Positions 15,243 through 64,000 of a stretch of 64,000 bases of DNA are shown piece after piece (position 1 is the first letter of the stretch; the number at the start of each line of letters is the position of its first letter). Below the pieces are notes generated by a model. The model saw only the letters and a program-made list of their open reading frames with translations, searched no databases and was not told the origin of the DNA. Where the stretch lies: positions 212,474,001 to 212,538,000 of the forward strand of contig OZ024743.1 in the NCBI GenBank assembly GCA_964016885.1, in the 5' to 3' direction. The DNA comes from Eledone cirrhosa (Eukaryota). A program made the position numbers and the translations under genes.

Positions 15243-18200
15243 TGCCAGGCGCCCAGTTTTCTCGGTCTTTGCTTGACCCAGGATTGCAGCTCGGTGAGTG
15301 AGACGAGTCTGGGAAAGGTTCGTCTCACAAACGAGGCCCACACCGGTTGACCGGTGAGGAATACGTAGAGGTGCCGTAGCCTTAATGCGTGTTTACGCAT
15401 CATTAGCCACGGCATCCCCAGCCCTCCTTTCGAAGGGTGTTGACAGCAGATGGATCTCCTCACCATAGGAGCCCGCCTCTTCCAAAGGAATTGGAAGAGC
15501 GCGCGCTCCATCTTGGTGAGGGTTTCCCTTGGGCAGGGCACTACGGTCAGGCGGTAGTAGATGACGGACGCTATATAGGTGTTCGCCACCTCCGCCCGAC
15601 CTTTCAGGGATAGTTTGCAACTGGCCCACTTCTGGGTCAGTGCAAACACCCTGTTCGTAACCTCCGCCCAGTTTTTCTCCACCTGGAGGTCCGGTCCGAA
15701 CCAGACCCCGAGCAACTTCACCGGGCCCTCCGTCCAGCGTCCGACGACGCCATCGGAGGGCATCGGTCTTCCCCTCCACGTGCCGAGTTGCAAACCGATC
15801 GACTTGTCCCGGTTCAGCTTAGCCCCTGTGAACCTTTCGTACTCCTCCAGTAAGGTGCCGACCGCCTCGATTTCGGAGGCCGTCGACACCATTACTGTCA
15901 CGTCATCGGCGTAGGCCGACACCGCTTTCCGCAATCCCGGTTCCAACGGGATGCCCTGCAACAACTCCAACTTCCGCAGTAGTGGCTCGAGAGTCAACAC
16001 ATACAGAAGGGAGGAGAGATGGCACCCTTGTCGGATGGACCGCGCGATTTTGAACGGCTCCGAGAGGTAGCCGTTCACCTTGACCCTAGAGCAGATGCGG
16101 CTGCTGTGCATAGCAGTGATCCAGCCCCTGAAAACGGGTCCGAAGCCTGCCGCCGCTAGCACCGCATCCAGATAACCATGGTCGACCCTATCGAACGCCT
16201 TAGATTGATCCAAGTTGATCAGAGCCCCACCAAAGCCGGGTTCGTTCCCAACCCTCTCTATGATGTATCGCATTAGGTGGAGGTTGTCATGGATGGACCT
16301 GGACGGGATAGCGCATGTCTGCGCATCTCCCACCAGGTTGCCCACGACAAGCGCCAACCTCTTTGCTAGCACCTTGGCCAAAATCTGTAACTTTGTATTT
16401 AGCAGAGTTATGGGCCTGAAGTTACTTATTTCGTCCCCCTTGTTCTCGTCCTTCCTCACTAGCGTGACTACGCCCTTGGTCACAGTACAGGGAATTCTGC
16501 CGTTCTGTTGCCAGTTGCAGTAGACCGCCTCGAGGAGATCGGGGAACAAGTCCGGCATAGCTAGATATAATTCGTAAGGAAGACCATCGAGACCCGGGGA
16601 TTTGCGTTTGCCGCATTGGCCCAGCACGTCCTCTATCTCAGCGGCCGAAATCGGCTCCTCGCAGGACTTCGCCTCCCTGTCCGAGAGACGCGGCAGGCCG
16701 TCGAGGTATGGACCGAAGTCCACATTCCCAACCGGCCCCCCGCCCCTCCCGAACAGTCGGGCAAAGTGCCTTTGAAAGGCCTCACACATCTGCTTAGGCT
16801 CAAGAATCGCCCGTCCATCAAGGTCTCGCAAAGACCGGATAGTGGATTTAGTTCCACTGTTGGCCTCTGTCACGCGGGCCCAGCTAACAGCTTTGGTCCC
16901 ATCGTTCCCTAGAGCACGTATTTTACTTCGGACAACGTAGCCTTCGTGCTTCGCGTCGAAAAACTGGCTCAAAGCCGTTCTCGACGCTAGCACTCTGGCC
17001 ACGTCGCCGCTTCTAATTGCCTCTTCTACTCTATCTATTAGCTCCCTTTCCTTCCTACTCCTATCCGCAGCTAGAACCTTACTAAATTCTATCGAGACTA
17101 CTCTAATCTCTCTCTTTAGAGATACCCACCACCTGCTGTTGACGATCGCTCCAGTCAATCGTTCCTTAACTAACGTACTAATCCGATCCCTGTAGGCTCT
17201 ACTTGCCGGCAAGGACAAGTTGAGCTTCCAGTAACCGGGGCCCTGTCTATGCGTTCTATCAAGGTTGACCATGCAGGTCACCAACTTGTGGTCTGAATAG
17301 CCAACCATGAGCATTTCTGGACAACTTAAAAAGTCCCTGTCCTTATTTCTAACTAAAAATCTATCTAGGTACGACCTAAATGATCCGCTGCGATTTGACC
17401 AAGACCAGGTTGGCACCGTCGGAAAATCTAGTCGAAATCTATCGGCCAGGTCAAATCGGTCGAGTAACCCCTTGAGGCTGTTGCACCCCTCTCTATCGGG
17501 ACATGCCCCTGCATAGTCCCAACGTGCATCCAGGATACCATTCCAATCCCCCACTAAAAGCAGGGAACGGGACGTCCCTAGAAAAGACTCCAGACGCTGG
17601 AAAAAGTCGGGCCGCTCTGTCCCAAAAGGGGCATATGCGGCTACCAGCCTAAAGGCTCCACCTTCACCACTGCCAAGGTCCAGCACCACCAGTCGACCCC
17701 CTGGGTCCAAGTGAACTATCTGTGTTGCAAGGCCCATATGTTTTTGCAGCAGAACGACAACCCCACCCCCACCTCCGGGCTGACAGAGAGATGCGTGCAT
17801 CTCAAAGTCGTCAAAGGTGGGGGCTAGCTGTCGCATGCTGCTGATCCGGGTCTCGCAGATAACCATCACATTTATAGATTGTGACCTGAGGTCATTTAGA
17901 AGCATTGCTTGCTTCCAAGACGAGCCCAGGCCACGCGCATTTAGACACCCTACTCTTAGCACAGCCATGTTGGTGGTAAAGAGAAAAGGCACTTACCTCT
18001 CTGCGTCCCGGGAAACGGGCCGCTCAATTTCCATGCTGGTTGGGGATGGGTTGTTGGGTGGGGTGGTGGTTTGTGGAAGTGAAGGGGCATCGGTGTGTTG
18101 TGGGGTTGGGGTGTTTGTGGTTGAGTGGGTGTCTGGGTGGGGTGGGGGTGGGGGGTGAAATTTTTTTAGGAGGACGCAGTTGATTGGTTTGGCGCAGGGG

Positions 18201-18874
18201 GGGGGGGGGGGGGGCCACGTCCTCCGTGAAATTTATTTTCAGTGTTTTGTACAAGTGCATTGGGACTTTTATCATTTTTAAATGAGGTAGTCCCACAGCA
18301 GTTATAAAGTTAGGCCCTTCAGTTTGGACCGAAGGGTTTGCTGAAATTGTTTTCCGTAATTATTTGTTGTCTGTGTTCATGTATGTGTATTGTAAGGTCT
18401 TTTTTTGTGTAGCAGTTAGTGTTGTGTGACAGGGAGGGGTGGTTTGTGTGTAGTTTGTGTTCTCTTGGGGGGGGGGGGGGTTAAAGTTAACATGTGTGTC
18501 TGTGGTGCGTCTTCTCTTCTTTCTTTTTACTTGTTGGAAGGGATCTTTTTCGTCTTGCGACGAAAGGGGTTCGTCTTCCTTGTTGGGTGGGAGGGGTATG
18601 TTTTCTGGTAGTGTTTGCGGTGTGTGTGTTTTTGTATTTGTTTTGGGTGAGGAGGGGTTGGGTGGGACAGTATTCTGTGTTATTTTTTCACGTGTTTGTT
18701 GTTGTTGTTGTTGTGGTGGTGGTGGTGGGGTTGTTGGTTTTTGTTGTTGTTGTTGTTGTGGTTGGGGTGGTGTTGTAGTTGGGGTGGTGTTGGTGTTGGT
18801 AGCAGTGTTTTTTTCTGTGTGAGCTGGGGACAGGCAGCCCTCAGGTGACCTCTATTGCCACAGAGGTAACAGGA
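15243..18874 (-). mobile_element. L1/Tx1-clade LINE (subfamily B), truncated at both ends
   Basis: ORF 15200-17992 has an APE endonuclease (LNARGL, GDWN, SDH) and RT (KSPGLDG, DQSKAFD, RQG, YADD); ORF1 remnant with CYLCGNRGHLRAAC knuckle; nearly identical to the copy at 58679-64000. Confidence 0.95.
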
Positions 18875-26990: not shown

Positions 26991-26991
26991 A

Positions 26992-27801: not shown

Positions 27802-27803
<2 letters not shown>
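26992..27803. repeat. 333-bp tandem repeat (~2.4 copies)
   Basis: Near-identical ORFs at 27223 and 27556 (offset 333); ggaagagagttcaaagggtgt occurs three times. Confidence 0.9.
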
Positions 27804-27839
<36 letters not shown>

Positions 27840-27841
<2 letters not shown>

Positions 27842-29175
27842 TTGCATTTTAAGTGCCATATCAAGTTTCAAAGAGAAGTTGAAGATTTTTTTATCAAATC
27901 TTCGGAAAGAAAAATTGTGGTTATTCCAGCGAAGTTTAAATTCTGTAGAAGTGGCACCGACATAGTTAAATATAATTCCACTAGTTTTAACTGTGCATTT
28001 GTAGACCACGTTTTTATCTAAACACTTATTTTGTAAAGGACAGTTTGATTTAATTTTACAGTTACATTTTGCGGAGTTATTGTTGCTCGGAACGGTACTA
28101 TTAGGTTGGATATTGCTAGAAATATTATTATTGCTATTTTGGTTATTTTGGTTAGGGTTTAAATTTAAGTTTCTATTATTAATTCTATTTATATTTTGTG
28201 CTATGTTCATAGTAGTAGAGTAGGATAGTTTTATAGTATGTTTGTTAAAGATTGAGTGGTATCTGTGAGCTTTAGGAAAACATTTATCTAGTGCTTTAAA
28301 GAATAGCTTTGCTAAAGGTGTTTTAACGCTTAATGAGAATGGGGGTGAATACCAAATAATATTTCTAGTTCTTCTGTTAGTTTTAGAGTTTAAGTTAAAT
28401 TGTTTATTATTATTACAATTAATAGTAGGGTGATTTGCCCTATTATTGTTGTCAATGTATTTAATCTTATTTATATACCCTGCTCTATTTAAAGCTTCAT
28501 TATAATATTCAGCCTTCTCATCAAAAATGTTTTTATTAGCGGAGATGCGTGAAATCCGTTGTTGGACACAATTGACAATAGTGTTCTTGATAGATCTAGG
28601 ATGATTAGAGTTAAAACTTACATAATTTAGATTCTCATTAATTTTATGGAATGGATAGTAGAGCCCTGTGCTAAAGTTTAATGTTACAGCTAAAAAGTTA
28701 ACGATTTTATAGTTATTCTCTATTTCTAACTTAAGGTTGTAGTTATTGAAGAATTGTATTATGGATTTTCTTTTCCTATTAATTTCACAATTACTATGAT
28801 TTTCAATTAAAAGCAGCATATCATCACGATATAAACCACCGGTCATCTCTGGTATTTTTCTATGCAATAAATAACCCCACAAGATCCGTTATTTGCGCCG
28901 AGTCAGATGATCCCATGGTGATGTCAAAATTATTTTTCCTATCGGCTCTTGTCCAGAAATGATAGTTGAATTCAATTAAAGTTTTCCGTGCGGTTAAAAT
29001 GATATGCATTTCTTCACTAGATAAATCTGTATGTTTAGATGCATAGATAAGAGCCTTATTAAGTAAACTAGGAGTAATAGAGGAGTAGTAGTTTGCAATA
29101 TCCATTTGAATGAATTTTTTGTTATGTTTAAATTTTATGTTATTGAACCAATCTATAATCTCATTACTCCAGGAA
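27840..29175 (-). mobile_element. AT-rich Penelope-like element (Naiad-like), RT plus GIY-YIG fragment
   Basis: DIANYYSSI, FDITMGSSDSAQITDLVG, GLYRDD, SNHP, RNIIWYSPPFS, CNCKIKSNCPL..KCL..NVVYKC..YVGAT..FKLRWNNH; interrupted at (TA)n. Confidence 0.88.
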
Positions 29176-35700: not shown

Positions 35701-36960
35701 TATCCCTGAAACTGGAGACCTGGCTTGATAGGAAGAGAGGGTGGGAGTTATCCCTGAAACTCTGGAGACCTGGCTTGATAGGAAGAGAGGGTGGGAGTTA
35801 TCCCTGAAACACTGGAGACCTGGCTTGATAGGAAGAGAGGGTGGGAGTTATCCCTGAAACTGGAGACCTGGCCTTGATAGGAAGAGAGGGTGGGAGTTAT
35901 CCCTGAAACTGGAGACCTGGCTTGATAGGAAGAGAGGGTGGGAGTTATCCCTGAAACTCTGGAGACCTGGCTTGATAGGAAGAGAGGGTGGGAGTTATCC
36001 CTGAAACTGGAGACCTGGTTTGATAGGAAGAGAGGGTGGGAGTTATCCCTGAAACTGGAGACCTGGTTTGATAGGAAGAGAGGGTGGGAGTTATCCCTGA
36101 AACTCTGGAGACCTGGCTTGATAGGAAGAGAGGGTGGAGTTATCCCTGAAACTGGAGACCTGGCTTGATAGGAAGAGAGGGTGGGAGTTATCCCTGAAAC
36201 TGGAGACCTGGCTTGATAGGAAGAGAGGGTGGGAGTTATCCCTGAAACACTGGAGACCTGGCTTGATAGGAAGAGAGGGTGGGAGTTATCCCTGAAACTC
36301 TGGAGACCTGGCTTGATAGGAATAGAGGGTTGGAGTTATCCCTGAAACACTGGAGACCTGGCTTGATAGGAAGAGAGGGTGGGAGTTATCCCTGAAACAC
36401 TGGAGACTTGGCTTGATAGGAAGAGAGGGTGGGAGTTATCCCTGAAACACTGGAGACTTGGCTTGATAGGAAGAGAGGGTGGGAGTTATCCCTGAAACTG
36501 GAGACTTGGCTTGATAGGAAGAGAGGGTGGGAGTTATCCCTGAAACACTGGAGACCTGGCTTGATAGGAAGAGAGGGTGGGAGTTATCCCTGAAACACTG
36601 GAGACTTGGCTTGATAGGAAGAGAGGGTGGGAGTTATCCCTGAAACTCTGGAGACTTGGCTTGATAGGAAGAGAGGGTGGGAGTTATCCCTGAAACTGGA
36701 GACTTGGCTTGATAGGAAGAGAGGGTGGGAGTTATCCCTGAAACACTGGAGACTTGGCTTGATAGGAAGAGAGGGTGGGAGTTATCCCTGAAACTGGAGA
36801 CCTGGCTTGATAGGAAGAGAGGGTGGGAGTTATCCCTGAAACACTGGAGACCTGGCTTGATAGGAAGAGAGGGTGGGAGTTATCCTTGAAACTCTGGAGA
36901 CCTGGCTTGATAGGAAGAGAGAGTGGGAGTTATCCCTGAAACACTGGAGACCTGGCTTGA
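29758..36960 (+). repeat. 7.2-kb minisatellite, 48/50-bp unit (~147 copies)
   Basis: Unit tgataggaagagagggtgggagttatccctgaaa(ca|ct|--)ctggagacctggct in unbroken tandem with no spacers. Confidence 0.97.
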
Positions 36961-37970
36961 ATATTTGCTACAGAGTGAATTCAAATCATATCCATCCGTC
37001 TTAAAAAAGGATACATTTGATAATGAGGCCTCAAGTGAACTATCTTTAGGGAAAAGTGTGATTGTCACGTCTAGAATGCATTTGATGATGGGTCTACGTG
37101 GTCAAGGCCTACATATCACTAAGGAACGAAAGTCAACAACAATAACAGCTGCAGCTGCATACGTATATATGTATGGTCCCTAATTCCTAATAGCGTCGGC
37201 GTTTCTTGGGCATTTTAAGTCTGGCGGAACCCATCTCTTTCCAGGCCTGAGTACAGCAGAATCGACCTCAGTACTAGACTGGTACTTTTTTATCGACCAC
37301 GAAAGGATGAAAGGCAAAGTTGACCTCGACAGGATTTGAACTCAGAGAGGAGAGAGGCAGAACGAATACCATAAAGCATTCTATCCGACGTTCTAGTGAC
37401 TCTGTCAATTCGTATATATACAAACATATAATATACACATAAAACTGCATAGCAGAAAAAGACGAGACCACTACTCCTTCAATGCTTAATGATATGTCTA
37501 CTTAGCCAGGAACTATCTAAGGCTAAACAACAGCAATAGCGACATTATCAGTATATACACATAGAAAGCATATCATGCACCTATACAGCAGGACAACATA
37601 GAACTGGATAATTTAAAAACATCAACAACAACAGGAATCAACTAGTTCTATATTTTCTTAAGTTCCTCGATCATTATAAAGGCAAACATGTAAAGGATTT
37701 AGTCAGATTAACAAATATGATTGCCTCCAAATAAGTAAGCTAGAAATGATTTGCTTCTCCGTCATTTTTGGCCATATTTAATCATTTATTGTGTTAATAA
37801 TTTGAAAATTTCTGTTGGGCCATGCAAATATTTAAAGTTTAACAATAACAATTTGAAAATAAGAATTTTAAAGTTCCTAGAAAAAATTAGCTTTTTCTGA
37901 AAAAGATTATAACCATAGCATGCTTCGAGTAACATAAGGACTGGGCAACATAAGGATAGGAAACCATCGG

Positions 37971-38070: not shown

Positions 38071-38785
38071 TCTTCTTCTTCTTCTTCTTCTTCTTCTTCT
38101 TCTTCTTCTTCTTCTTCTTCTTCTTCTTCTTCTTCTTCTTCTTCTTCTTCTTCTTCTTCTTCTTCTTCTTCTTCTTCTTCTTCTTCTTCTTCTTCTTCTT
38201 CTTCTTCCTGAGAGGGTCGTGGGAGCTGAGTCTCAATTACTCCTTCCAGCGGGTCTTGTCAGAAGTAACCTTCTCCAATTGATCCGGTTGGATCCCTAAG
38301 CGAGACAAGCTGAGCTCATGGATGTTATCGATCCATCTTGCTCGGAGTCTACCCCTGGGTCTCCTGCCGCTTGGTTTTGCCCGTAAAATATGTCCAGTGA
38401 TTCTTTCCTGAGGCATTCTAATCACATGTCTGTAGCATCGGATCTGTGATCTCTCAATTCGGAGGAGTTGCAGCAGCATACGTATATATGTATGGTCCCA
38501 TCACTCCTGATAGAGTTGGCGTTTCTTGGGCATTTTAAGTCTGGCGGAACCTAATAGTATCGGATCTGTGATCTCTCAATTCGGAGAAGTTGCAGCTCTA
38601 CCTGGAGTAACTATCTGATCTCCGAACTACGCACTCTATCGAGTAACGTTACTTCAGAAACCCTTTGGAGGAACCCCATTTCGGCCGCTTGTATTTGCGA
38701 TCGTATTCTTTCGGTCATTACCCAAGATTCATAACCATAGATAAAGGTTGGCGCAAATACCGAATTGAAGATAGCTAGTTTATCT
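38071..38785 (-). mobile_element. RTE-clade LINE 3' fragment with (GAA)n tail
   Basis: PTFIYGYESW...AAEMGFLQRV, QIRCYRHVIRM...RPRGRLRARWID; (TTC)n at 38071-38208. Confidence 0.88.
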
Positions 38786-38887
38786 TTTATATCTCCCCCC
38801 TTCTTATGATTACCGAATGATAACCATATTTCCACATTTCATTGATAATAGCATTTTCACTTTCTATTTTGTGTCATTGTTTTACAG

Positions 38888-39140
38888 ATTGGACATCAGC
38901 CGAATTCGAGAGAGACAAGGAAATCATGTGGAAACAATTCTACATATTCCTCTTGCCGAGTTAGAACTGACGGTAAAGCTAAAACATCCAGAACCGGTAT
39001 TACACAAAAGTGCCAGTGTCTCAGTTTCGGACGGCGTGGAAAATCAGCATTTTAAAGTGGAACCGAAGCATTGTTATTTGGTCGGTCATACCAACACTTT
39101 CCCTTCCGCCCACGTGCAATTGTGCCTAGCACCTAGGCTG
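38888..39140 (+). CDS. Reprolysin/ADAMTS-like metalloprotease, prodomain exon
   Basis: ttttacag acceptor; LDISRIR...LELTVKLKHPEPVLHKSASV...KHCYLVGHTNTFPSAHVQLCLAPRL matches the M12B propeptide pattern; phase-0 donor gtgaca. Confidence 0.75.
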
Positions 39141-49656: not shown

Positions 49657-51438
49657 ATGGCCGAAGCTTCTTCACCAAAATTCGAAGGAGGAAAGGGGAA
49701 GGTAAACTTACAGTTTCCCCCTGCCACTGTCACAGTAGCAGAGGTCAAGAAGAAAGGTCAGCCAGAGGAAGAATTCTCTCCACCTGTTAACCGACAACTT
49801 GACGTTGCCATGGCAACAACCCAAAGAACCAGCAGCAACAGCAACAACAACAATGCGACGGACGAAAACAACACCAATAACAATAACAACAACAACAAGA
49901 CCAATAACGGTGACAACAACAACAATGATAACAACAACACCACCAACGACAACAACAACACAAACAAACAAAATTTCTCCTTCGCCGAGACGACAAGTAA
50001 AACCCTCGACTATCTGCCAGTAGATATAACCAAAGCGAAGGAGCTACTGGCAGATGCGAAAAAATATATAGTGTACGGAGAAAATGGTTCATTCACAATC
50101 CATCCCCCCCCGGAACTAAAAAGCCAGAGACTCCTAAACACGGTCATGTTTAGGACAATCTCGAACAAAAGTAAAAAACCAGCTCAACCATCACAGAGTG
50201 AGATAGAGCTGGTTTTAAAAGACGTCATGAAGGACATCACCTTCATTCAGAAGGATAGACTCTACGGGAGTCTATCCATTCTCATGAAGGACAGGGACAC
50301 AGCAGTGAAACTGTCCATCAAACCAATCACATCCACCGCATACACCTTCTACCCTACGTACATGGGTAGAAGAACACAAAAAATAAAAATCCACACCATC
50401 CTGCCGATTATGGACATATGGTGGGTTTTGACAGGTTTTCTGGACCTGGAGGATGACATGCTGGTGTCCATGGGAAAGGCATCGGGTGACGCGTTCAGTG
50501 GAACGAGCCTCGAACTTGTAGTTCAAATGAGGCCCGAAAGGATCGCCCAGATCCCTGAACGCGTCATACTGGATGATCTAACCTTCATCAACATTACCGT
50601 TGAGGGTAGACGGCCCTCGTGTTACCTCTGCGGAACCAGAGGTCACCCGAGGGCTGTCTGTCCCCAACTTAATAAGAAAACCCCAATCCTGCCTACACCA
50701 CCAACAACTGCACAACCAACACAATCACCACAACTACAACTACAAAAACAACCACCACAGCTCAAACCAAAACAAAACAATGTCCAACCCATCCCCTCCA
50801 CTCAAAAAACAAAAACAATTTCCAAAACACCCGTACCGCAAACACAACCCGAAAATATACCCCTCCCCTCCAACGCGGAAGATGACCCTAGTTCGTCGTC
50901 AGACGAGGAGGAGCACTTCCACACAATCAAAAGAAAAAAAAGAAAACACACCTCAGACACACAAATGAAAACAACCCCTCCCCAAAACATAACACTGACA
51001 CCAACACAAAAGAGCTCACAACAACAGCAAACAAAAAACACCACACAAAAACAAAAACATGCATACACATACATAAACACAAGAAACAAAAAACTGTTAA
51101 ACATTGTGTACAACAATCTAATAAAAACACAAGGGCCTAACTTCACCCAGGCAGGGGATTTCCCCCACCTCAAAATGATTAAGGCCCCACAGGACACCTA
51201 TAAAACTTTAAAAAACAATTTTAAAGAGGACGTGGGTCCCCCCTGCGTCGGGCCCATTAACCGCGTCCTCCTAAAAAACTATCCCACGCCCTCCCCAAAC
51301 ACCCACACAACTCCAAGCTCCCCAACCACACACCACACTGATGCCCCTACACTTCCACAAACCACCACCCCACCCAACAACCCATCCCCCACCCTAATGG
51401 AAATTGTTCAGCCCGATACCCGGGACGCAGAGAGGTAA
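49657..51438 (+). CDS. LINE ORF1 (593 aa), poly-Asn tract and CCHC zinc knuckle
   Basis: Uninterrupted ORF; CYLCGTRGHPRAVC; basic KRKKRK motif. Confidence 0.9.
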   Translation: MAEASSPKFEGGKGKVNLQFPPATVTVAEVKKKGQPEEEFSPPVNRQLDVAMATTQRTSSNSNNNNATDENNTNNNNNNNKTNNGDNNNNDNNNTTNDNNNTNKQNFSFAETTSKTLDYLPVDITKAKELLADAKKYIVYGENGSFTIHPPPELKSQRLLNTVMFRTISNKSKKPAQPSQSEIELVLKDVMKDITFIQKDRLYGSLSILMKDRDTAVKLSIKPITSTAYTFYPTYMGRRTQKIKIHTILPIMDIWWVLTGFLDLEDDMLVSMGKASGDAFSGTSLELVVQMRPERIAQIPERVILDDLTFINITVEGRRPSCYLCGTRGHPRAVCPQLNKKTPILPTPPTTAQPTQSPQLQLQKQPPQLKPKQNNVQPIPSTQKTKTISKTPVPQTQPENIPLPSNAEDDPSSSSDEEEHFHTIKRKKRKHTSDTQMKTTPPQNITLTPTQKSSQQQQTKNTTQKQKHAYTYINTRNKKLLNIVYNNLIKTQGPNFTQAGDFPHLKMIKAPQDTYKTLKNNFKEDVGPPCVGPINRVLLKNYPTPSPNTHTTPSSPTTHHTDAPTLPQTTTPPNNPSPTLMEIVQPDTRDAER

Positions 51439-51462
51439 GTGCCTTTTCTCTTCACCACCAAC

Positions 51463-54400
51463 ATGGCTATGCTAAGAGTAGGCTGTTTAAATGCGCGTGG
51501 CCTGGGCTCAACTTGGAAGCAAGCAATGCTTCTAAATGACCTCAGGTCACAACGTATAGATGTGATGGTTATTTGCGAGGCCCGGATCAGCAACGTGCGA
51601 CAGCTGGCCCCCACTTTTGATGACTTTGAGATGCACGCATCTCTCTGTCAGCCCGGAGGTGGGGGTGGAGTTGTCGTTCTGTTGCAAAAACATCTGGATC
51701 TCGCAACACAGATGGTACATTTGGACCCGGAGGGTCGACTAGTGGTTCTGGACCTTGGCAGTGGTAAAGGCGGAGCGTTTAGGTTGGTAGCCGCCTACGG
51801 CCCTTTCGGGTCAATGCGGCCGGACTTCTTCCATCGTCTGGAGACTTTTCTAGGGACGTCCCGCTCCTTGCTATTAGTGTGGGACTGGAATGGTATCCTA
51901 GATGCACGCTGGGACTACGTAGGGGCCTGTCCCGATAGAGAGGGGTGTAATAGCCTCAAAGGGTTAATCGGTCGATTTGACCTGGCCGATAGATATCGAC
52001 TAGATTTTCCGACTGCGCCAACCTGGACTTGGGCAAATCGTAGCGGAACATCTAGGTCGTACCTAGATAGGTTCTTAGTTAGAATTAAGGATAAGGACTT
52101 TTTAAGTTGTCCAAAAATGCGCATGGTTGGCTATTCAGACCACAAATTAGTGACCTGCATGGTCAACCTTGACAGAACTCATAGACAGGGACCCGGTTAC
52201 TGGAAGCTCAACTTGTTCTTACCGGCAAGTAAGGCTTACAGGAACCGGATTAGCACTTTAGTTAAGGAGCGGTTGACGGGCGCCATCGTCAACAGCAGGT
52301 GGTGGGGATCTCTCAAAAGAGAGATTAGAGTAGTCTCTATAGAATTTAGTAAGGAGTTAGCCTCCAATAGACATAGGAAGGAAAGGGACTTGGTAGATAG
52401 TGTAGAAGAGGCAATTAGAAGCGGCGACGTGGCCAGAGTGCTAGCGTCGAGAACGGCCCTGGGCCAGTTCTTCGACGCGAAACACGAAGGCTGCATCGTC
52501 CAAAGCAAAATACGTGCTCTGGGAAACGAGGGGACCAAAGCTGTTAGCTGGGCCCGCGTGACAGAAGCCAAAAGAGGGAGCAGATCCACTATCCGGTCTT
52601 TGCGAGACCAGGATGGACGGGTGATCCTTGAACCTAAGCAGATGTGCGAGGCTTTTCAAAAGCACTTTGCCGAATTGTTCGGAAGGGGCGGGGGGCCGGT
52701 TGGGGACGTGGACTTCGGTCCATACCTCGACGGACTGCCGCGTCTCTCGGACAGGGAGGCGAAGTCCTGCGAGGAGCCGATTTCAGCCGCTGAGATAGAG
52801 CACGTGCTGAGCCAATGCGGCAAACGCAAATCCCCGGGTCTCGATGGTCTTCCATACGAACTATATCTAGCTATGCCGGACTTGTTCCCCGAACTCCTCG
52901 AGGCGGTCTACTGCAACTGGCGACAGAACGGGAGAATTCCCTGTGCTGTGACCAAGGGCGTAGTCACGCTAGTGAGGAAGGACGAGAACAAGGGGGACGA
53001 TATAAATAATTTCAGGCCCATAACTCTGCTAAATACAGAGTTACAGATTTTGGCCAAAGTGCTAGCAAAGAGGTTGGCGCTTGTCGTGGGCAACCTGGTG
53101 GGAGATGCGCAGACATGTGCTATCCCGTCCAGGTCCATCCACGATAACCTCCACCTCATGCGATACATCATAGAGAGGGTTGGGAACGAACCCGGCTTTG
53201 GTGGGGCCCTGATCAACTTGGATCAATCTAAGGCATTCGATAGGGTCGACCATGGTTACCTGGATGCGGTGCTAGCGGCGGCAGGCTTCGGACCCGTTTT
53301 CAGGGGCTGGATCAATGCCATCCACAGCAGCCGCATCTGCTCTAGGGTCAAGGTGAACGGCTATCTCTCGGAGCCGTTCGAAATCGCGCGGTCCATCCGA
53401 CAGGGGTGCCCTCTCTCCTCCCTTCTGTATGTAGTGACTCTAGAGCCACTGCTGCGGAAGTTGGAGTTGTTGCAGGGCATCCCGTTGGAACCGGGATTGC
53501 GGAAAGCGGTGTCAGCCTAAGCCGATGACGTAACAGTAATGGTGTCGACGGCCTCGGAAATCGGGGCGATCGGCACCTTACTGGAGGAGTACGAAAGGTT
53601 TACAGGGGCTAAGCTGAACCGGGACAAGTCGATCGGTCTGCAACTTGGCACGTGGAGGGGCAGATCGATGCCCTCCGATGGCGTCGTCGGGCGCTGGACG
53701 GAGGGCCCGGTGAAATTGCTCGGGGTCTGGTTCGGACCAGACCTCCAGGTGGAGAAGAACTGGGGTGAGGTGACGAGCAGGGTGTTTGCACTGACCCAGA
53801 AGTGGGCCGAGTGCAAACTGTCCCTGAAAGGTCGGGCGGAGGTGGCGAACACTTATATAGCGTCCGTCATCTACTACCGCCTGACCGTGGTGCCTTGCCC
53901 AAGGGAAACGCTCGCCAAAATGGAGCGCGCACTCTTCCAATTCCTTTGGAAGAAGCGGGCTCCTATGGTGAGGAGATCCATCTGCTGTCAACACCCTTCG
54001 AAAGGAGGGCTGGGGATGCTGTGGCTGATGATACGTAAACACGCATTAAGGCTACGGCACCTTCAGGTATTCCTCTCCGGTCAACCGGTGTGGGCCCCGT
54101 TTGTGAGGCGAGCCTTTCCCAGACTCGTCTCACTCACCGAGCTGCAATCCTGGGTCAAGCAAAGACCGAGAAAACTGGGCGCCTGGCACACCGAGTGTGC
54201 CCAGGCGCTCACGGCTCTCTGGCAGGTGGACCCGGCTGTCAGTGGAGAATCCACCTCGTCATTCTATAGAGGGCTGGTGGTTAGCAGGTGCGACGACGCC
54301 CTCGGAGAAGCCCTAGGCATAGAGGAAGACGAACTGGCCAACCTGTTCGGTAGGACATTCAGCCCGGGACCCATGGATAACTTCCAGAGGTCCCTGGCCT

Positions 54401-54900
54401 GGCAATGCTACAGAAGGGCTCTGCCCGTTCGAGAAAGGCTCTACAGACACGGGCGCCCGGGTAGGGACCCATCGAAAAAGGTCTGTCCCAGATGCGTGTG
54501 CGACGAGGAAACCGTTGCACACGCATTGGTACACTGCTCGGGCATTGCCGATCTGTGGGGCTATGTCGAACAACTGCTGTCAAGGGTGGGACCGATCCGG
54601 TTGACCACCGAGTCTATTGTAACGATCAAGCCGCCTCCCCTCTTCAAAAACGAAGGAGAGGCGGTGTTTCTGTGCGTAATAGCCATGGCGAAAGAGGTTG
54701 TATGGTGGACGCGTCTGAAAGGACTGAGGTCAGACACCTTTCTCTCTGGCCAACAACTGGTCCGTTTCTTCCGATATCATTTCGGAAGAAGGATCAGGAT
54801 GGAGAGAGAGGTGCTGCACCCCAGCCGTTTCTATGAAAGATGGGTGAAAGTGGCGAGAATGGCCCGTGTGAATGGGCCTTCACTCTACATCAGACTATAG
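51463..54900 (+). pseudogene. LINE ORF2 (APE-RT-zinc finger) with one nonsense codon
   Basis: One frame from ccaccaacATGG to TAG at 54900, except TAA at 53518-53520 replacing the Tyr of YADD; C-terminal CPRC..EETVAHALVHC. Confidence 0.92.
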
Positions 54901-55179
54901 GTGAGGAAGATGAAAGACCAAGGGAGCACCCCTTCTCTGTGCTCCTGAGGTGAAGGGTTGCACACTTTTTTCGGGGGTGTGTGCGACCCCCCAAGGCGCC
55001 TCCTCTCTATTGAGGACTTTGTTATAAATTTTATTTTTTGTTATATTTTATTTTATTTTTATATATTGTTATTGCCTCCTCCTTATTGAGGACGCCTTGT
55101 TTTGTAAACTCCCCCAATTGTACTTGTCCCACTTTTGATGCCCTGGGGGCAAATAAAAGAAACATATCTATCTATCTAT

Positions 55180-58100
55180 AGATAGTTCACTTGGACCCAG
55201 GGGGTCGACTAGTGGCTATCTATCTATAGATAGTTCACTTGGACCCAGGGGGCCGACTGGTGGTGCTGGACCTTGGCAGTGGTGAAGGTAGAGCCTTTAG
55301 GCTGGTAGCCGCATATGCCCCTTTTGGGACAGAGCGACCCGACTTTTTCCAGCGCCTGGAGTCTTTTCTAGGGACGTCCCGTTCCCTGCTCTTAGTGGGG
55401 GATTGGAATGGTATCCTGGATGCACGTTGGGACTATGCAGGGGCATGTCCCGATAGAGAGGGGTGCAACAGCCTCAAGGGGTTACTCGGCCGATTTGACC
55501 TGGCCGATAGATTTCGACTAGATTTTCCGACGGTGCCAACCTGGTCTTGGTCAAATCGCAGCGGATCATCTAGGTCGTACCTAGATAGATTTTTAGTTAG
55601 AAATAAGGACAGGGACTTTTTAAGTTGTCCAGAAATGCTCATGGTTGGCTACTCAGACCACAAGTTGGTGACCTGCATGGTCAACCTTGATAGAACGCAT
55701 AGACAGGGCCCCGGTTACTGGAAGCTCAACTTGTCCTTGCCGGCAAGTAGAGCCTACAGGGATCGGATTAGTACGTTAGTTAAGGAACGGTTGACTGGAG
55801 CGATCGTCAACAGCAGGTGGTGGGTATCTCTAAAGAGAGAGATTAGAGTAGTCTCGATAGAATTTAGTAAGGTTCTAGCTGCGGATAGGAATAGGAAGGA
55901 AAGTGAGCTAATATATAGAGTAGAAGAGGCAATTAGAAGCGGCGAAGTGGCCAGAGTGCTAGCGTCGAGAAAGGCTTTGAGCCAGTTTTTCGACGCGAAG
56001 CACGAAGGCTGCGTTGTCCGAAGAAAAATACGTGCTCTAGGGAACGAGGGGACCAAAGCTGTTAGCTGGGCCCGCGTGACAGAGGCCAACAGTGGAACTA
56101 AATCCACCATCCGGTCTTTGCGAGACCTGGATGGACGGGCGATTCTTGAGCCTAAGAAGATGTGTGAGGCCTTTCAAAGGCACTTTGCCCGACTGTTCGG
56201 GAGGGGCGGGGAGCCGGTTGGGAATGTGGACTTCGGTCCATACCTCGACGGCCTGCCGCGTCTCTCGGACAGGGAGGCGAAGTCCTGCGAGGAGCCGATT
56301 TCGGCCGCTGAGATAGAGGACGTGCTGAGCCAATGCGTCAAACGCAAATCCCCGGGTCTCGATGGTCTTCCTTACGAATTATATCTAGCTATGCCGGACT
56401 TGTTCCCCGATCTCCTCTAGGCGGTCTACTGCAACTGGCAACAGAACGGGAGGATTCCCTGTACTGTGACCAAGGGCGTAGTCACGCTAGTGAGGAAGGA
56501 CGAGAACAAGGGGGACGAAATAAGTAACTTCAGGCCCATAACTATGCTAAATACAGAGTTACAGATTTTGGCCAAGGTGCTAGCAAAGAGGTTGGCGCTT
56601 GTCGTGGGCAACCTGGTGGGAGATGTGCAGACATGCGCTATCCCGTCCAGGTCCATCCATGACAACCTCCACCTCATGCGATACATCATAGAGAGGGTTG
56701 GGAACGAACCCGGCTTTGGTGGGGTTCTAATCAACTTGGATCAATCTAAGGCGTTCGATAGGGTCGATCATGGTTACCTGGATGCGGTGCTAGCGGCGGC
56801 AGGCTTCGGACCCGTTTTCAGGGGCTGGATGACTGCTATGCACAGCAGCCGCATCTGCTCTAGGGTCAACGTGAACGGCTACCTCTCGGAGCCGTTCAAA
56901 ATCGCGCGGTCCATCCAACAAGGGTGCCCTCTCTCCTCCCATCTGTATGTGTTGACTCTCGAGCCACTATTGCGGAAGTTGTTGCAAGGCATCCCTTTGG
57001 AACCGGGATTGCGGAAAGCGGTGTCGGCCTACGCCGATGACGTGACAGTAATAGTGTCGACGGCCTCCGAAATCGAGGCGGTCGGCACCTTACTGGAGGA
57101 GTACGAAAGGTTCACAGGGGCTAAGCTGAACCGGGACAAGTCGATCGGTTTGCAACTCGGCACGTGGAGGGGCAGACCGATGCCCTCCGATGGCGTCGCC
57201 GGACGCTGGACGGAGGGCCCGGTGAAGTTACTCGGGGTCTGGTTCGGACCGGACTTCCAGGTGGAGAAGAACTGGGCGGAGGTTACGAACAGGGTGTTTG
57301 CACTGACCCAGAAGTGGGCCAGTTGCAAACTATCCCTGAAAGGTCGGGCGGAGGTGGCGAACACCTATATAGCGTCCATCATCTACTACCGCCTGACCGT
57401 AGTGCCCTGCCCAAGGGAAACCCTCACCAAGATGGAGCGTGCGCTTTTCCAATTCCTTTGGAAGAGGCGGGCGCCTATGGTGAGGAGATCCATCTGCTGT
57501 CAACACCCTTCGAAAGGAGGGCTAGGGATGCCGTGGCTAATGATGCGTAAATACGCATTAAGGCTACGGCACCTCTACGTATTCCTCACCGGTCAACCGG
57601 TGTGGGCCTCGTTTGTGAGACGAACCTTTCCCAGACTCGTCTCACTCACCGAGCTGCAATCCTTGGTCAAGCAAAGACCGAGAAAACTGGGCGCCTGGCA
57701 CACTGAGTGTGCCCAGGCGCTCACCGCCCTCTGGCTGGCGGATCCGGTTATCAGTGGAGACTCCACCGCAACATTCTATAGAGGGCTGGTACGCAGCAGG
57801 TGCGACGACGCCCTCGGAGAAGCCCTAGACATGGAGGAGGACGAACTGGCCAGCCTGTTCGGTAGGACATTCAGCCCGGGACCTATGGACAACTTCCAGA
57901 AGTCCCTGGCCTGGCAGTGCTACCGAGGGTCTCTACCCGTCCGAGAAAAGCTCTACAGACACGGGCGCCCGGGTAGGGACCCCGCCAAAAAGATTTGTCC
58001 CAGATGCGTGTGTGACGAGGAAACCGTTGCACACGCATTGGTACACTGCTCGGGCGTAGCCGATCTGTGGGGCTATGTCGAACAACTGCTGTCAAGGGTA

Positions 58101-58678
58101 GGACCGATCCGGTTGACCACCGAGTCTATTGTAATGATCAAGCCGCCTCCCCCCTTCAAAGATGAAGAGAGGCGGTGTTTCTGTGCGTAATAGCCATGGT
58201 GAAAGAAGTTGTATGGTGGACGCGTCTGAAAGGACTGAGGTCAGGCACCTTTCTCTCTGGCCAACAACTGGTCCGTTTCTTCCGATATCATTTCGGAAGA
58301 AGGATCAGGATGGAGAGAGAGGTGCTCCACCCCAGTCGTTTTTATGAAAGGTGGGTGAAAGTGGTGAGAATGGCCCGTGGGAATGGGCCTTCTCTTTACA
58401 TAAGCCTGTAGGTGGAAAAGAGGAAGGAACGAGGGAGCACCCCCTCTCTGTGCTCCTGAGGAAAAGGGTTGCACACTTGTTTCGGGGGAGTGTGCGACCC
58501 CCCAAGGCGCCCCCTCTCTATTGAGGATTTTGTTATAAATTTTATTTTTGTTATATTTTATTTTATTTTATATATTGTTATTGCCTCCTCCTTATTGAGG
58601 ACGCCTTTTTGTGTAAACTCCCCCCTTTGTACTTGTCCCACTTTTGATGCCCTGGTGGCAAATAAAAGAAACATATCT
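55180..58678 (+). mobile_element. 5'-truncated L1/Tx1 LINE (subfamily B), second in the tandem
   Basis: Starts inside the APE domain; stop at 56418-56420; frameshift near 58170; complete 3'UTR ending aataaaagaaacatatct. Confidence 0.95.
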
Positions 58679-61600
58679 AACTCTTTACGATGGACACATG
58701 TGCTGAGCTCGCTCGGTAAGTTTCGTTTAAATTTATCCGGAAATTGTGAACTGTAAACTTTCATTTTTGTACCATTTTGTAGAGGGACTGCCAGGTCAAA
58801 TTTTGATCTGGTCGGTCTCTCAAAATATTCTGCGCCTTTGGGCGAAATAGTATTGTAAACATTTTATCTTTCGAAAAATTTCGAAAAACCCTATTTTGAG
58901 AAAAATGGCTGAAGCATCTTCACCAACAATCAAAGAAGGAAAGGGGAAGTTATACTCACAGCTTCCCCCTGCCACTGTCACAGCAGCAGATGCCAAAGGC
59001 AGAGGTCAGCCAGAGGAAGAATTGTCTTCACCTGTTGACCGACCACTAGATGTAGCCACAACTATACAAGAAACTGAAAACAACAACAACAACAACGACA
59101 ACAACAGCAACAATAAAGACAACAAAAACAACAACAACACAAACGTCACAAGTATCCACACACCAAACGAGAAAGACAACAACAACAACAAAGATGAAAA
59201 CAACTCAAACGACGAGAAACAAAACAATACAAACACCAACAACGAAAACAAAATATCTTTTGCACAAACGGCTAAATTATCAGTCACGTATGTGCTTGAA
59301 GATATTTCAAATGCTGGAAAAAGCCAAGAAATATATATCTTTTGGCGAAAACGGTTCGTTTTCTATAAATTCACCTCCAGAACTAAAAAAACAGACGGAA
59401 TTACGAACTGTCGTATTCCGTACAATTTTAAATAAAACAAAAAAACCAGCACAACCATCTCAAGCTGACATTCAGTTAGTACTGAAAGAAGCGATGAGAG
59501 ACTTCACTTTCATACAAAAGGATTAACTATTGTGGAGGGTAGGCGTCCCTCCTGTTACCTCTGTGGCAATAGAGGTCACCTGAGGGCTGCCTGTCCCCAG
59601 CTCACACAGAAAAAAACACTGCTACCAACACCAACACAACCCCAACAACAACAACAAAAACAACCACAACAACAACAACAACAAAAACCAACACCACCAC
59701 CACCACCACAACAACAACAACAACAACAAACACGTGAAAAAATAACACAGAATACTGTCCCACCCAAATCCCTCCCCACCCAAAACAAATACAAAAACAC
59801 ACACACCGCAAACACTACCAGAAAACATACCCCTCCCACCCAACAAGGAAGACGAACCCCTTTCGTCGCAAGACGAAAAAGATCCCTTCCAACAAGTAAA
59901 AAGAAAGAAGAGGAGACGCACCACAGACACACATGTTAACTTTAACCCTCCCCAAGAGAACACAAACTACACACAAACCACTCCTCCCTGTCACACAACA
60001 CTAACTGCTACACAAAAAAAGACCTTACAATATACATACATGAACACAGACAACAAAGAATTACTGAAAACAATTTCAGCAAACCCTTCGGTCCAAACTG
60101 AAGGGCCTAACTTTATAACTGCTGTGGGACTACCTCATTTAAATATGATTAAAGTCCCAATGAACTTTTACAAAACACTGAAAATAAATTTCACGGAGGA
60201 CGTGCCCCTCCCCCCCCCCCCCTGCGCCAAACCAATCAACCGCGTCCTCCTAAAAAATTTCACCCCCCACCCCACTCAGACACCCACTCAACCACAAACA
60301 CCCCAACCCCACAACACACTGATGCCCCTTCACTTCCACAAACCACCACCCCACCCAAAAACCCATCCCCAACCAGCATGGAAATTGAGCGGCCCGTTTC
60401 CCGGGACGCAGAGAGGTAAGTGCCTTTTCTCCTTACCACCAACATGGCTGTGCTAAGAGTAGGGTGTCTAAATGCGCGTGGCCTGGGCTCATCTTGGAAG
60501 CAAGCAATGCTTCTAAATGACCTCAGGTCACAATCTATAAATGTGATGGTTATCTGCGAGGCCCGGATCAGCAGCATGCGGCAGCTAGCACCCACCTTTG
60601 ACGACTTTGAGATGCACGCATCTCTCTGTCAGCCCGGAGGTGGGGGTGGGGTTGTCGTTCTGCTGCAAAAACATCTGGGCCTTGCAACACAGATAGTTCA
60701 CTTGGACCCAGGGGGTCGACTGGTGGTGCTGGACCTTGGCAGTGGTGAAGGTGGAGCCTTTAGGCTGGTAGCCGCATATGCCCCTTTTGGGACAGAGCGG
60801 CCCGACTTTTTCCAGCGTCTGGAGTCTTTTCTAGGGACGTCCCGTTCCCTGCTTTTAGTGGGGGACTGGAATGATATCCTGGATGCCCGTTGAGACTATG
60901 CAGGGGTATGTCCCGATAGAGAGGGGTGCAACAGCCTCAAGGGGTTACTCGGCCGATTTGACCTGGCCGATAGATTTCGACTAGATTTTCCGACGGTGCC
61001 AACCTGGTCTTGGTCAAATCGCAGCGGATCATCTAGGTCGTACCTAGATAGATTTTTAGTTAGAAATAAGGACAGGGACTTTTTAAGTTGTCCAGAAATG
61101 CTCATGGTTGGCTATTCAGACCACAAGTTGGTGACCTACATGGTCAACCTTGATAGAACGCATAGACAGGGCCCCGGTTACTGGAAGCTCAACTTGTCCT
61201 TGCCGGCAAGTAGAGCTTACAGGGATCGGATTAGTACGTTAGTTAAGGAACGGTTGACTGGAGCGATCGTCAACAGCAGGTGGTGGGTATCTCTAAAGAG
61301 AGAGATTAGAGTAGTCTCGATAGAATTTAGTAAGGTTCTAGCTGCGGATAGGAATAGGAAGGAAAGGGAGCTAATAGATAGAGTAGAATAGGCAATTAGA
61401 AGCGGCGACGTAGCCAGAGTGCTAGCGTCGAGAACGGCTTTGAGCCAGTTTTTCGACGCAAAGCACGAAGGCTGCGTTGCCCGAATTAAAATACGTGCTC
61501 TAGGGAACGAGGGGACCAAAGCTGTTAGCTGGGCCCGCGTGACAGAGGCCAACAGTGGAACTAAATCCACCATCCGGTCTTTGCGAGACCAGGATGGACG

Positions 61601-64000
61601 GGCGATTCTTGAGCCTAAGCAGATGTCTTTCAAAGGCACTTTGCCCGACTGTTCGGAAGGGGCGGGGAGCCGGTTGGGGATGTGGACTTCGGTCCATACC
61701 TCGACGGCCTGCCGCGTCTCTCGGACAGGGAGGCGAAGTCCTGCGAGGAGCCGATTTCGGCCGCTGAGATAGAGGACGTGCTGAGCCAATGCGTCAAACG
61801 CAAATCCCCGGGTCTCGATGGTCTTCCTTACGAATTATATCTAGCTATGCCGGACTTGTTCCCCGATCTCCTCGAGGCGGTCTACTGCAACTGGCAACAG
61901 AACGGGAGAATTCCCTGTACTGTGACCAAGGGCGTAGTCACGCTAGTGAGGAAGGACGAGAACAAGGGGGACGAAATAAGTAACTTCAGGCCCATAACTC
62001 TGCTAAATACAGAGTTACAGATTTTGGCCAAGATGCTAGCAAAGAGGTTGGCGCTTGTCGTGGGCAACCTGGTGGGAGATGTGCAGACATGCGCTATCCC
62101 GTCCAGGTCCATCCATGACAACCTCCACCTCATGTGATACATCATAGAGAGGGTTGGGAACGAACCTGGCTTTGGTGGGGCTCTGATCAACTTGGATCAA
62201 TCTAAGGCGTTCGATAGGGTCGACCATGGTTACCTGGATGCGGTGCTAGCGGCGGCAGGCTTCGGACCCGTTTTCAGGGGCTGGATGACTGCTATGCACA
62301 GCAGCCGCATCTGCTCTAGGGTCAACGTGAACGGCTACCTCTCGGAGCCGTTCAAAATCGCGCGGTCCATCCAACAAGGGTGCCCTCTCTCCTCCCATCT
62401 GTATGTGTTGACTCTCGAGCCACTATTGCGGAAGTTGGAGTTGTTGCAAGGCATCCCTTTGGAACCGGGATTGCGGAAAGCGGTGTCGGCCTACGTCGAT
62501 GACGTGACAGTAATAGTGTCGACGGCCTCCGAAATCGAGGCGGTCGGCACCTTACTGGAGGAGTACGAAAGGTTCACAGGGGCTAAGCTGAACCGGGACA
62601 AGTCGATCGGTTTGCAACTCGGCACGTGGAGGGGCAGACCGATGCCCTCCGATGGCGTCGTCGGACGCTGGACGGAGGGCCCGGTGAAGTTGCTCGGGGT
62701 CTGGTTCGGACCGGACCTCCAGGTGGAGAAAAACTGGGCGGAGGTTACGAACAGGGTGTTTGCACTGACCCAGAAGTGGGCCAGTTGCATATATCCCTGA
62801 AAGGTCGGGCGGAGGTGGCGAACACCTATATAGCGTCCGTCATCTACTACCGCCTGACCGTAGTGCCCTGCCCAAGGGAAACCCTCGCCAAGATGGAGCG
62901 CGCGCTCTTCCAATTCCTTTGGAAGAGGCGGGCTCCTATGGTGAGGAGATCCATCTGCTGTCAACACCCTTCGAAAGGAGGGCTGGGGATGCCGTGGCTA
63001 ATGATGCGTAAACACGCATTAAGGCTACGGCACATCTACGTATTCCTCACCGGTCAACCGGTGTGGGCCTCGTTTGTGAGACGAACCTTTCCCAGACTCG
63101 TCTCACTCACCGAGCTGCAATCCTGGGTCAAGCAAAGACCGAGAAAACTGGGCGCCTGGCACACTGAGTGTGCCCAGGCGCTCACTGCCCTCTGGCAGGC
63201 GGATCCGGTTATCAGTGGAGACTCCACCGCAACATTCTATAGAGGGCTGGTACGCAGCAGGTGCGACGACGCCCTCAGAGAAGCCCTAGACATGGAGGAG
63301 GACGAACTGGCCAGCCTGTTCAGTAGGACATTCAGCCCGGGACCTATGGACAACTTCCAGAAGTCCCTGGCCTGGCAGTGCTACCGAGGGGCTCTACCCG
63401 TTCGAGAAAAGCTCTACAGACACGGGCGCCCGGGTAGGGACCCCGCCAAAAAGATCTGTCCCAGATGCGTGTGCGACGAGGAAACCGTTGCACACGCATT
63501 GGTACACTGCTCGGGCGTAGCCGATCTGTGGGGCTTGTCGAACAACTGCTGTCAAGGGTGGGACCGATCCGGTTGACCACCGAATCTATTGTAATGATCA
63601 AGCCGCCTCCCCCCTTCAAAGATGAAGGAGAGACGGTGTTTCTGTGCGTAATAGCCATGGTGAAAGAAGTTGTATGGTGGACGCGTCTGAAAGGACTGAG
63701 GTCAAGCACCTTTCTCTCTGGCCAACAACTGGTCCGTTTCTTCCGATATCATTTCGGAAGAAGGATCAGGATGGAGAGAGAGAGGTGGTCCACCCCAGTC
63801 GTTTTTATGAAAGGTGGGTGAAAGTGGCGAGAATGGCCCGTGTGAATGGGCCTTCTCTTTACATAAGCCTGTAGGTGGAAAAGAGGAAGGAACGAGGGAG
63901 CACCGCCTCTCTGTGCTCCTGAGGAGAAGGGTTGCACACTTGTTTCGGGGGTGTGTGCGACCCCCCAAGGCGCCTCCTCTCTATTGAGGATTTTGTTATA
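58679..64000 (+). mobile_element. Near full-length L1/Tx1 LINE (subfamily B), third in the tandem, degenerate
   Basis: 5'UTR gatggacaca; ORF1 from MAEASSP with frameshifts and a ~330-bp deletion near 59523; ORF2 with several stops; 3'UTR runs off the window. Confidence 0.95.

What the first reader, a model, noticed from the sequence alone, without database searches (positions are those of the whole stretch)
51433..54904. ORF2 may be exactly an intron: perfect donor on the ORF1 stop, candidate acceptor on the ORF2 stop
Seen: ORF1 ends GAG AG|GTAAGT, a consensus donor overlapping the TAA, in all three copies that retain the junction (51435, ~60416 and ~17997 on minus). ORF2 ends ...ccttcactctacatcagactaTAG|GTGA in copy A and ...ccttctctttacataagcctgTAG|GTGG in B copies. 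Splicing 51435-54900 in copy A gives GAG AGG TGA, the same Glu-Arg-stop as the unspliced ORF1. Inference: splicing could make an ORF1-only mRNA that keeps the 3'UTR, setting the ORF1:ORF2 ratio and possibly generating non-autonomous ORF1-only elements. Caveats: a competing AG lies 7 nt upstream of the proposed acceptor, and in subfamily B the spliced ORF1 would read on about 40 codons.
Basis: partly seen in the sequence, partly recalled or inferred. Interest (0 to 1): 0.75.

Follow-up and report, generated by a model that had tools for sequence, protein, structure and literature searches.

The report
RNA clamp masks LINE splice donor
A family of jumping genes keeps a perfect splice-start signal where its first gene ends, and the RNA on the two sides of its second gene is complementary and is predicted to fold over that signal, which likely decides whether the second gene is cut out, although no spliced copy was found and the exact cut first proposed is unsupported.

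Summary
The region is ORF2 of a young, (TATC)n-targeting Tx1-like LINE. The sequence facts check out. The donor is more than chance: GTAAGT stays invariant 27-40 nt before the ORF2 AUG in six lineages (49-87% identical in the endonuclease), while the ORF1 stop falls in three different places around it. The acceptor 'exactly on the ORF2 stop' is not supported. A sister family ends ORF2 in TAA, the AG 7 nt upstream gives a cleaner product, and 0 joined copies were found against 1,423 unspliced junctions and 9,552 3' ends. The donor, spacer and AUG (51417-51478) are complementary to the ORF2 end and 3'UTR start (54883-54952), and this pairing changes together within clades. Best reading (0.5): a copia-like switch, where a U1 site yields an ORF1-only mRNA unless the long-range duplex masks it. 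Rivals: splicing-independent U1 function, or control of ORF2 translation. No run on record as RNA was available. The scan noted the donor before on other DNA of this genome (8 notes). The clamp idea came from one of them and was tested here.

The parts
49439..55163 (+). Full-length Tx1-like LINE, copy A, inserted in a (TATC)n tract
   Evidence: TATC upstream of 13 of 13 full-length 5' ends and in 16 of 20 tails of fetched A copies
49471..49537 (+). 5'UTR intron-like piece (GTAAGT ... TTTTGTAG, 67 nt); donor-like motif 30-43 nt from the 5' end in all seven family 5' ends read
   Evidence: 623 unspliced genomic copies, 0 spliced
49657..51438 (+). ORF1, 593 aa, with a CCHC knuckle (CYLCGTRGHPRAVC)
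   Evidence: no Pfam hit; Atlas look-alikes carry zf-CCHC / ZCCHC3-type RNA-binding domains at 0.90-0.92, a lead
51435..51440 (+). Conserved 5' splice-site motif GTAAGT overlapping the ORF1 stop
51439..51462 (+). Pyrimidine-rich inter-ORF spacer
51417..51478 (+). 5' arm of predicted long-range duplex (ORF1 end, donor, spacer, ORF2 AUG)
   Evidence: 51 predicted pairs in copy A
51463..54900 (+). ORF2 (APE-type endonuclease, RT, zf-RVT); in-frame TAA at 53518-53520 in this copy
54861..54878 (+). Small hairpin GGCCC/GGGCC near the ORF2 end, with excess synonymous conservation
54883..54952 (+). 3' arm of predicted long-range duplex (last ORF2 codons, stop, purine tract, start of 3'UTR); part of it can instead form a local hairpin
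54892..54893 (+). Upstream AG (CAG): better near-stop acceptor candidate in the A/B clade; a join here is in frame with the ORF2 stop
   Evidence: untested on RNA
54899..54900 (+).
55228..58682 (+). Second, 5'-truncated B-type copy in tandem
58680..64000 (+). Third, B-type copy with an internal ORF1 deletion; donor at 60416, ORF2 stop at 63872
15243..18874 (-). B-type copy truncated at both ends; donor GT at 17996

Best explanation
This LINE lineage keeps an invariant GTAAGT at the end of ORF1 and carries complementary sequences on both sides of ORF2, which are predicted to pair over 3.4 kb and would mask that site; the site is likely a U1 snRNP splice donor through which part of the RNA would lose ORF2 and serve as an ORF1-only mRNA. 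Shown: conservation of the motif, the complementarity and its clade-matched change, and the absence of spliced DNA copies in the screens run. Inferred: U1 binds the nascent donor. When the ORF2 end is transcribed, its purine tract pairs either with the distant spacer (donor and near-stop AGs buried, unspliced RNA kept as ORF2 mRNA and template) or locally (donor free, ORF2 removed). The acceptor is unresolved. If it lies near the stop, 54892-54893 fits better than 54899-54900. Cis preference of ORF2p (established for L1) would explain why only unspliced RNA is copied.
For: GTAAGT is the only run of invariant positions in 55 nt around the junction in six lineages. It is present in 30 of 30 family C loci, 29 of 30 family D loci and 13 of 15 other sister loci that cover the site. 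The ORF1 stop starts 1, 5 or 27 nt after the G depending on family, so the stop codon does not explain it. Four-fold sites are identical across four lineages at only 56 of 180 (0.31^6 = 0.0009, 0.31^3 = 0.03 if three bases are taken as constrained). Duplex: binding gain beats every one of 41-43 control windows in 5 of 5 elements. Mean gain is -22.0 own, -18.0 within clade (48 pairs) and -12.2 between clades (108 pairs). Own partner beats all other-clade partners in 10 of 13. Dinucleotide shuffles reach it 0, 0, 0, 0, 2 and 9 times of 100. In family C the donor pairs fully with CACTTGCC; in A, B and E2/E4 only its TAA is unpaired. Precedent: Ty1/Copia gag mRNA.
Against: No spliced RNA seen. No listed run is on record as RNA, and the contigs laid show unspliced junctions only. 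0 joined genomic copies among 9,552 A/B 3' ends and none in family C (6 hits examined, 1,528 unspliced). The 5'UTR piece, which could be copied in cis if spliced, is also 0 against 623, whereas about 2% of full-length human L1s are spliced copies. No acceptor is conserved across families. The spacer-only pairing is not significant in 4 of 12 copies and is the best site in the element in only 7 of 18. Copy A itself pairs better with B and C 3' ends than with its own. Folding energies are predictions for two isolated pieces.
Confidence: 0.5

Rival explanations
1. U1 binds the ORF1-end motif (and the 5'UTR motif) without productive splicing, to aid elongation, block premature polyadenylation or govern nuclear retention; the duplex then releases U1 so the full-length RNA can be exported.
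For: Strong donors but no conserved acceptor. Zero spliced copies from either donor. A splicing-independent U1 role is shown for EVD. The human L1 5'UTR donor is kept for another function and is rarely spliced.
Against: ORF2 of A, B and C has no AATAAA/ATTAAA to suppress (0 each; 2 in D). AGs giving near-immediate stops lie at the ORF2 end in A, B, D and E2, though picked after the fact.
Confidence: 0.22
2. The duplex controls ORF2 translation: it places the ORF2 AUG against the ORF2 stop and 3'UTR and gates termination-reinitiation; GTAAGT is a protein- or ADAR-recognised loop in it rather than a splice site.
For: The helix is centred on the AUG/stop pair in all families. SART1 and L1 use RNA structure or nearby sequence for ORF2 reinitiation (passages).
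Against: The motif is paired in C and bulged in A/B/E, yet its sequence is invariant and matches the donor consensus. Stop-to-AUG phase differs among families (27, 38, 32, 12 nt), so editing-based readthrough cannot be general.
Confidence: 0.15
3. One reading: intron 51435-54900, acceptor on the ORF2 stop, producing ORF1-only elements.
For: Gives an unchanged ORF1 end in A and 0-2 extra codons in D and E2.
Against: TAA stop in family C; 41 extra codons in B; an upstream AG precedes it; 0 genomic copies.
Confidence: 0.1
4. Chance or shared ancestry: a stop codon in a donor-like context.
For: The lineages are related; the motif was noticed after the fact; 19 distant relatives lack GTAAGT upstream of ORF2.
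Against: Invariance across shifted stop positions and half-saturated silent sites.
Confidence: 0.03

Closest known systems
Ty1/Copia subgenomic gag mRNA (Arabidopsis EVD; Drosophila copia ~3 kb intron) - PMC5580714, 12 passages read
   Same: Conserved U1 site at the boundary of structural and enzymatic ORFs; spliced short mRNA for the structural protein and unspliced long RNA as template; U1 also blocks premature termination.
   Different: LTR elements with one gag-pol frame, where splicing creates the stop. Here a non-LTR element whose ORF1 already has a stop, with a predicted 3.4-kb-range duplex over the donor, and splicing not shown.
Human L1 splicing and SpIREs - PMC5860796, abstract, sections 7, 10 and part 1 of 2 of section 17 read
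   Same: L1-group element with a conserved splice donor that is rarely used; masking by RNA structure is suggested there.
   Different: The L1 donor lies in the 5'UTR, is kept as part of a RUNX3 site, and leaves ~2% spliced genomic copies. Here the donor is at the ORF1 end and no spliced copy was found.
Microsatellite-targeting Tx1 elements Kibi and Koshi - PMC4494074, passages
   Same: EN-RT element inserted in a specific microsatellite.
   Different: Targets here are (TATC)n (A/B) and (ATT)n (C/D). The passages read mention no splice signal in these elements.
Termination-reinitiation of ORF2 in SART1 and L1 - PMC5972666, passages
   Same: Bicistronic RNA with a short spacer and RNA structure near the ORF2 start.
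   Different: Those structures are local; here the predicted partner lies beyond the ORF2 stop.

Membership tests
L1/Tx1 group non-LTR retrotransposons | ORF2 with N-terminal APE endonuclease, RT and C-terminal zinc-binding region | tested here: met
   PF03372, PF00078, PF13966 (27.4 bits against a cut-off of 27.5); best PDB match human L1 ORF2p, E 4e-48, against R2 E 3e-19
L1/Tx1 group non-LTR retrotransposons | ORF1 nucleic-acid-binding protein upstream of ORF2 | tested here: inconclusive
   CCHC motif in sequence; no Pfam hit; Atlas lead only
Tx1 clade | Target-site preference (microsatellite) | tested here: met
   13 of 13 5' flanks and 16 of 20 tails carry TATC repeats
Tx1 clade | RT phylogeny groups with named Tx1 elements | not testable with these tools
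   No named Tx1 reference among 84 homologues; the label Tx1 is recalled and rests on anatomy
Copia-type subgenomic mRNA strategy | Conserved 5' splice site at the structural/enzymatic boundary | tested here: met
Copia-type subgenomic mRNA strategy | Conserved acceptor, or proximal poly(A) site, defining the short RNA | tested here: not met
   No conserved strong acceptor; no AATAAA/ATTAAA in ORF2 of A, B, C
Copia-type subgenomic mRNA strategy | Spliced short mRNA exists | not testable with these tools
   No run on record as RNA
SpIRE / ORF1-only non-autonomous elements | Genomic copies joined at the splice sites | tested here: not met
   0 found (family C; young D)

The most novel reading that the evidence does not exclude
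A LINE lineage makes two RNAs as retroviruses and copia do, a spliced ORF1-only mRNA and an unspliced genomic RNA, and chooses between them with a co-evolving 50-70 bp duplex that loops out the whole 3.4 kb ORF2 and hides the splice donor: a built-in RNA switch for LINE protein stoichiometry and template choice.
Probability: 0.4. Interest if true: 0.82.

Novelty: new variant of a known kind. Interest (0 to 1): 0.63.

Why it matters
LINEs need far more ORF1p than ORF2p, and the accepted solution is inefficient reinitiation on one bicistronic RNA. A conserved donor plus a long-range duplex around ORF2 would be a second solution, shared in logic with LTR elements. It would also explain how an element that carries strong splice donors keeps copying only its unspliced RNA. 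The family is young and abundant (over a thousand copies keep the junction, many with open ORF2), so each step can be tested directly.

Tried and rejected
No RNA holder listed; kind of all six runs is not on record. Contigs of four runs laid on the element: 15 of 239 joints shown, none from 51434. Three runs on the donor: no joints, 15 of 27 loose ends shown, none at 51434. Neither result bears on expression. From depth arithmetic I inferred that a contig of run X4 ends exactly at 51434. I rejected this as evidence of splicing, because 3 of 8 genomic copies with another base at 51404 are 5'-truncated exactly at 51405 and would give the same fork. Depth differences between ORF1 and ORF2 in X4 were set aside, as the tool warns. 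A mini-intron fusing ORF1 to ORF2 in frame fits A and C but not old D/E phases, and no such genomic copy appeared. A conserved TTCTATAG|AG inside ORF2 (F-Y-R) scored best among shared AGs but is out of frame in D and was not among the top 14 synonymous-constraint windows. 3'UTR acceptors after the U-rich tract score highest in C and D but are not positionally conserved, and the A/B one is polymorphic. Editing-based readthrough and ORF2 back-splicing: phases and AGs not conserved. The ORF1 deletion in the third copy has no GT-AG ends. A hotspot of 5' truncation near the donor was not seen among the A loci mapped. Distant relatives: 19 of 61 metagenome loci reached or neared the ORF2 start; none has GTAAGT in the 120 nt upstream, and one has GTGAGT 5 nt before its ORF1 stop. 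The hybrid-family lead (e1-10311009) was not tested. Nine literature searches listed no title or abstract start describing this donor or duplex in a LINE. The library lacks most subscription journals and Repbase reports, and no supplements were read.
Full report
What it is. The window comes from a 3.0-Gb genome rich in simple repeats; I did not determine the organism. 49439-55163 is a full-length non-LTR retrotransposon: ORF1 49657-51438 and ORF2 51463-54900, with endonuclease, RT and zf-RVT domains and human L1 ORF2p as nearest solved structure. It sits in (TATC)n: 13 of 13 full-length 5' ends and 16 of 20 tails among fetched copies carry TATC repeats. This is the habit of microsatellite-targeting Tx1 elements (PMC4494074, passages); the Tx1 label itself is recalled, not shown by a tree. 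The family is young, with many 1,153-codon open frames among 150 scored hits. Copy A has an in-frame TAA at 53518.

The observation.

The donor is conserved. I collected sister families from the same genome. GTAAGT lies 27-40 nt before the ORF2 AUG in 30 of 30 family C loci and 29 of 30 family D loci. Among 40 other sister loci, 16 reached the ORF2 start and 15 covered the site; 13 of these have it and two carry one-base changes. Across six lineages, 49-87% identical in the endonuclease, it is the only invariant run in 55 positions; ORF1 proteins of A, C and D are 28-37% identical. The ORF1 stop begins 1 nt after the G in A/B/C, 5 nt after it in older D/E, and 27 nt after it in younger D (19 of 30 loci by longest open frame, two with 497 open codons). 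The stop codon therefore does not explain the motif. Four-fold sites are identical across A, C, D and E at 56 of 180. The motif is lineage-limited in my data: none of 19 distant metagenome relatives (21-30% identity; 19 of 61 loci examined) has GTAAGT upstream of ORF2. Two earlier AI notes report it in a distant relative, which I did not reproduce. A second donor-like motif lies 30-43 nt from the 5' end in all seven family 5' ends read.

The acceptor is not. Family C ends ORF2 in TAA (27 of 27 copies reading to the end; 3 interrupted copies left out). D/E have no pyrimidine tract before the stop. On a home-made score the stop AG ranks 35 of 267 in A and 16 of 262 in B; the upstream AG ranks 10 and 22. 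The upstream AG lies in a Ser or Arg codon in A, B and B2, and a join there adds one codon and reuses the ORF2 stop in A and both B copies. It is the better candidate in that clade, but family C has only a GAG there. No AG with a strong tract is shared by all families.

No spliced DNA copies. The unspliced junction occurs 1,423 times and the A/B ORF2 end 9,552 times. The proposed join occurs 0 times, and a join with up to 30 nt to the 3'UTR motif 0 times. Screens for any other continuation gave 7, 4 and 11 hits. These were unrelated sequence or point and small-indel variants that keep the spacer (for the first two sets; matched letters for the third). Each screen misses about a quarter of cases through its last degenerate letter. 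Family C: 1,528 unspliced, 6 other hits, none a join. Young D: 0. 5'UTR piece: 623 unspliced, 0 spliced. In human L1 about 2% of full-length copies are spliced (PMC5860796 section 7). An ORF2-less RNA needs ORF2p in trans, so zero is not fatal, but the predicted non-autonomous elements were not found here.

A long-range duplex. This lead came from note e1-8835883 and was tested here. The spacer pairs with the 45 nt after the ORF2 stop: best site in the element in 7 of 18 copies, and p < 0.05 against shuffles in 8 of 12. With flanks included, the pairing runs from the ORF1 end through the AUG on one side and from the last ORF2 codons into the 3'UTR on the other. In copy A it has 51 predicted pairs, 51417-51478 with 54883-54952. 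The gain beats all 41-43 control windows in 5 of 5 elements. Own, within-clade and between-clade means are -22.0, -18.0 and -12.2 kcal/mol. Own beats all other-clade partners in 10 of 13, copy A being one of the three exceptions. Shuffles reach the observed gain 0-2 times of 100 in five lineages and 9 times in the sixth. The donor is fully paired in C. In A, B, E2 and E4 it is flanked by helices with TAA unpaired. In young D and E3 the best fold pairs it locally. Both near-stop AGs lie in the 3' arm. Part of that arm can form a local hairpin instead (sequence), which suggests two states. These are predictions on isolated pieces, not a formal covariation test.

How it likely works. Inferred: U1 binds the nascent donor. 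Once the ORF2 end is made, the duplex either closes, masking donor and near-stop AGs and keeping the unspliced RNA as ORF2 mRNA and template, or it does not, and ORF2 is spliced out to give ORF1 mRNA. A junction at the ORF1 stop would also avoid a downstream exon junction and the long 3' tail that invite nonsense-mediated decay (own knowledge). The closest precedent is the Ty1/Copia gag mRNA, where a conserved U1 site both splices and blocks premature termination, and Drosophila copia has a ~3 kb intron (PMC5580714, passages). Confidence 0.5. Rivals: U1 without splicing 0.22, translation control 0.15 (PMC5972666, passages), the exact first reading 0.10, chance 0.03.

RNA evidence. None available: no listed run is on record as RNA, and the contig results are told under Tried and rejected.

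Novelty. My nine paper searches (listings only, except the five papers named) showed no description of this in a LINE. PMC7140322 (passages) has no occurrence of 'splic'. The library is incomplete and supplements were not read. The scan itself noted the donor in eight other places of this genome; these are AI notes, not independent support. Verdict: a real, conserved RNA-processing signal with a predicted co-evolving clamp; the exact intron is unsupported; new variant of a known kind; interest 0.63.

Noticed in passing
window 49471-49537 and 58717-58786; loci L193-L234: Donor-like motif 30-43 nt from the 5' end in all seven family 5' ends read (GA|GTAAGT, CG|GTAAGT, CT|GTAAGG, AAG|GTTTGT, AAG|GTTCGT, CT|GTAAGT, CC|GTAAGT), with an AG about 60-70 nt downstream; 623 unspliced against 0 spliced A/B copies.
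   Followed up: partly
L193-L202, L221-L234: Sister families C, D and E insert in (ATT)n rather than (TATC)n and often in head-to-tail arrays about 6 kb apart (listing).
   Followed up: no
L053, L068: Recombinant copies with an A-type 5' part and a B-type ORF2 end; the A 5' arm pairs better with the B 3' arm (-27.4) than with its own (-18.8).
   Followed up: partly
window 55170-55240: At the join of copy A and the next copy, about 40 nt (TATCTAT...GGACCCAGGGGG) is duplicated, as from a restarted reverse transcription.
   Followed up: no
window 46154-46696 (+): Open frame with a probable host exon (…IEMVIYSDADMTKLL…YIISKMNG), resembling the start of an M12B metalloprotease domain by recall; no Pfam hit. 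The + strand LINE copies may lie in a host intron.
   Followed up: partly
window 29900-37000: Tandem array about 7 kb long with strong strand skew (GC skew about 0.42).
   Followed up: no
window 23925-28888 (-) and 38775-42162 (+): Decayed RT elements of other kinds (Penelope-like frames at 24-28.9 kb; another non-LTR frame at 39-42 kb), by inspection.
   Followed up: no
L166, L172, L189: In young family D a 1-nt deletion moved ORF1 to read through the donor to a TAG in frame with ORF2, 12 nt before the AUG.
   Followed up: partly
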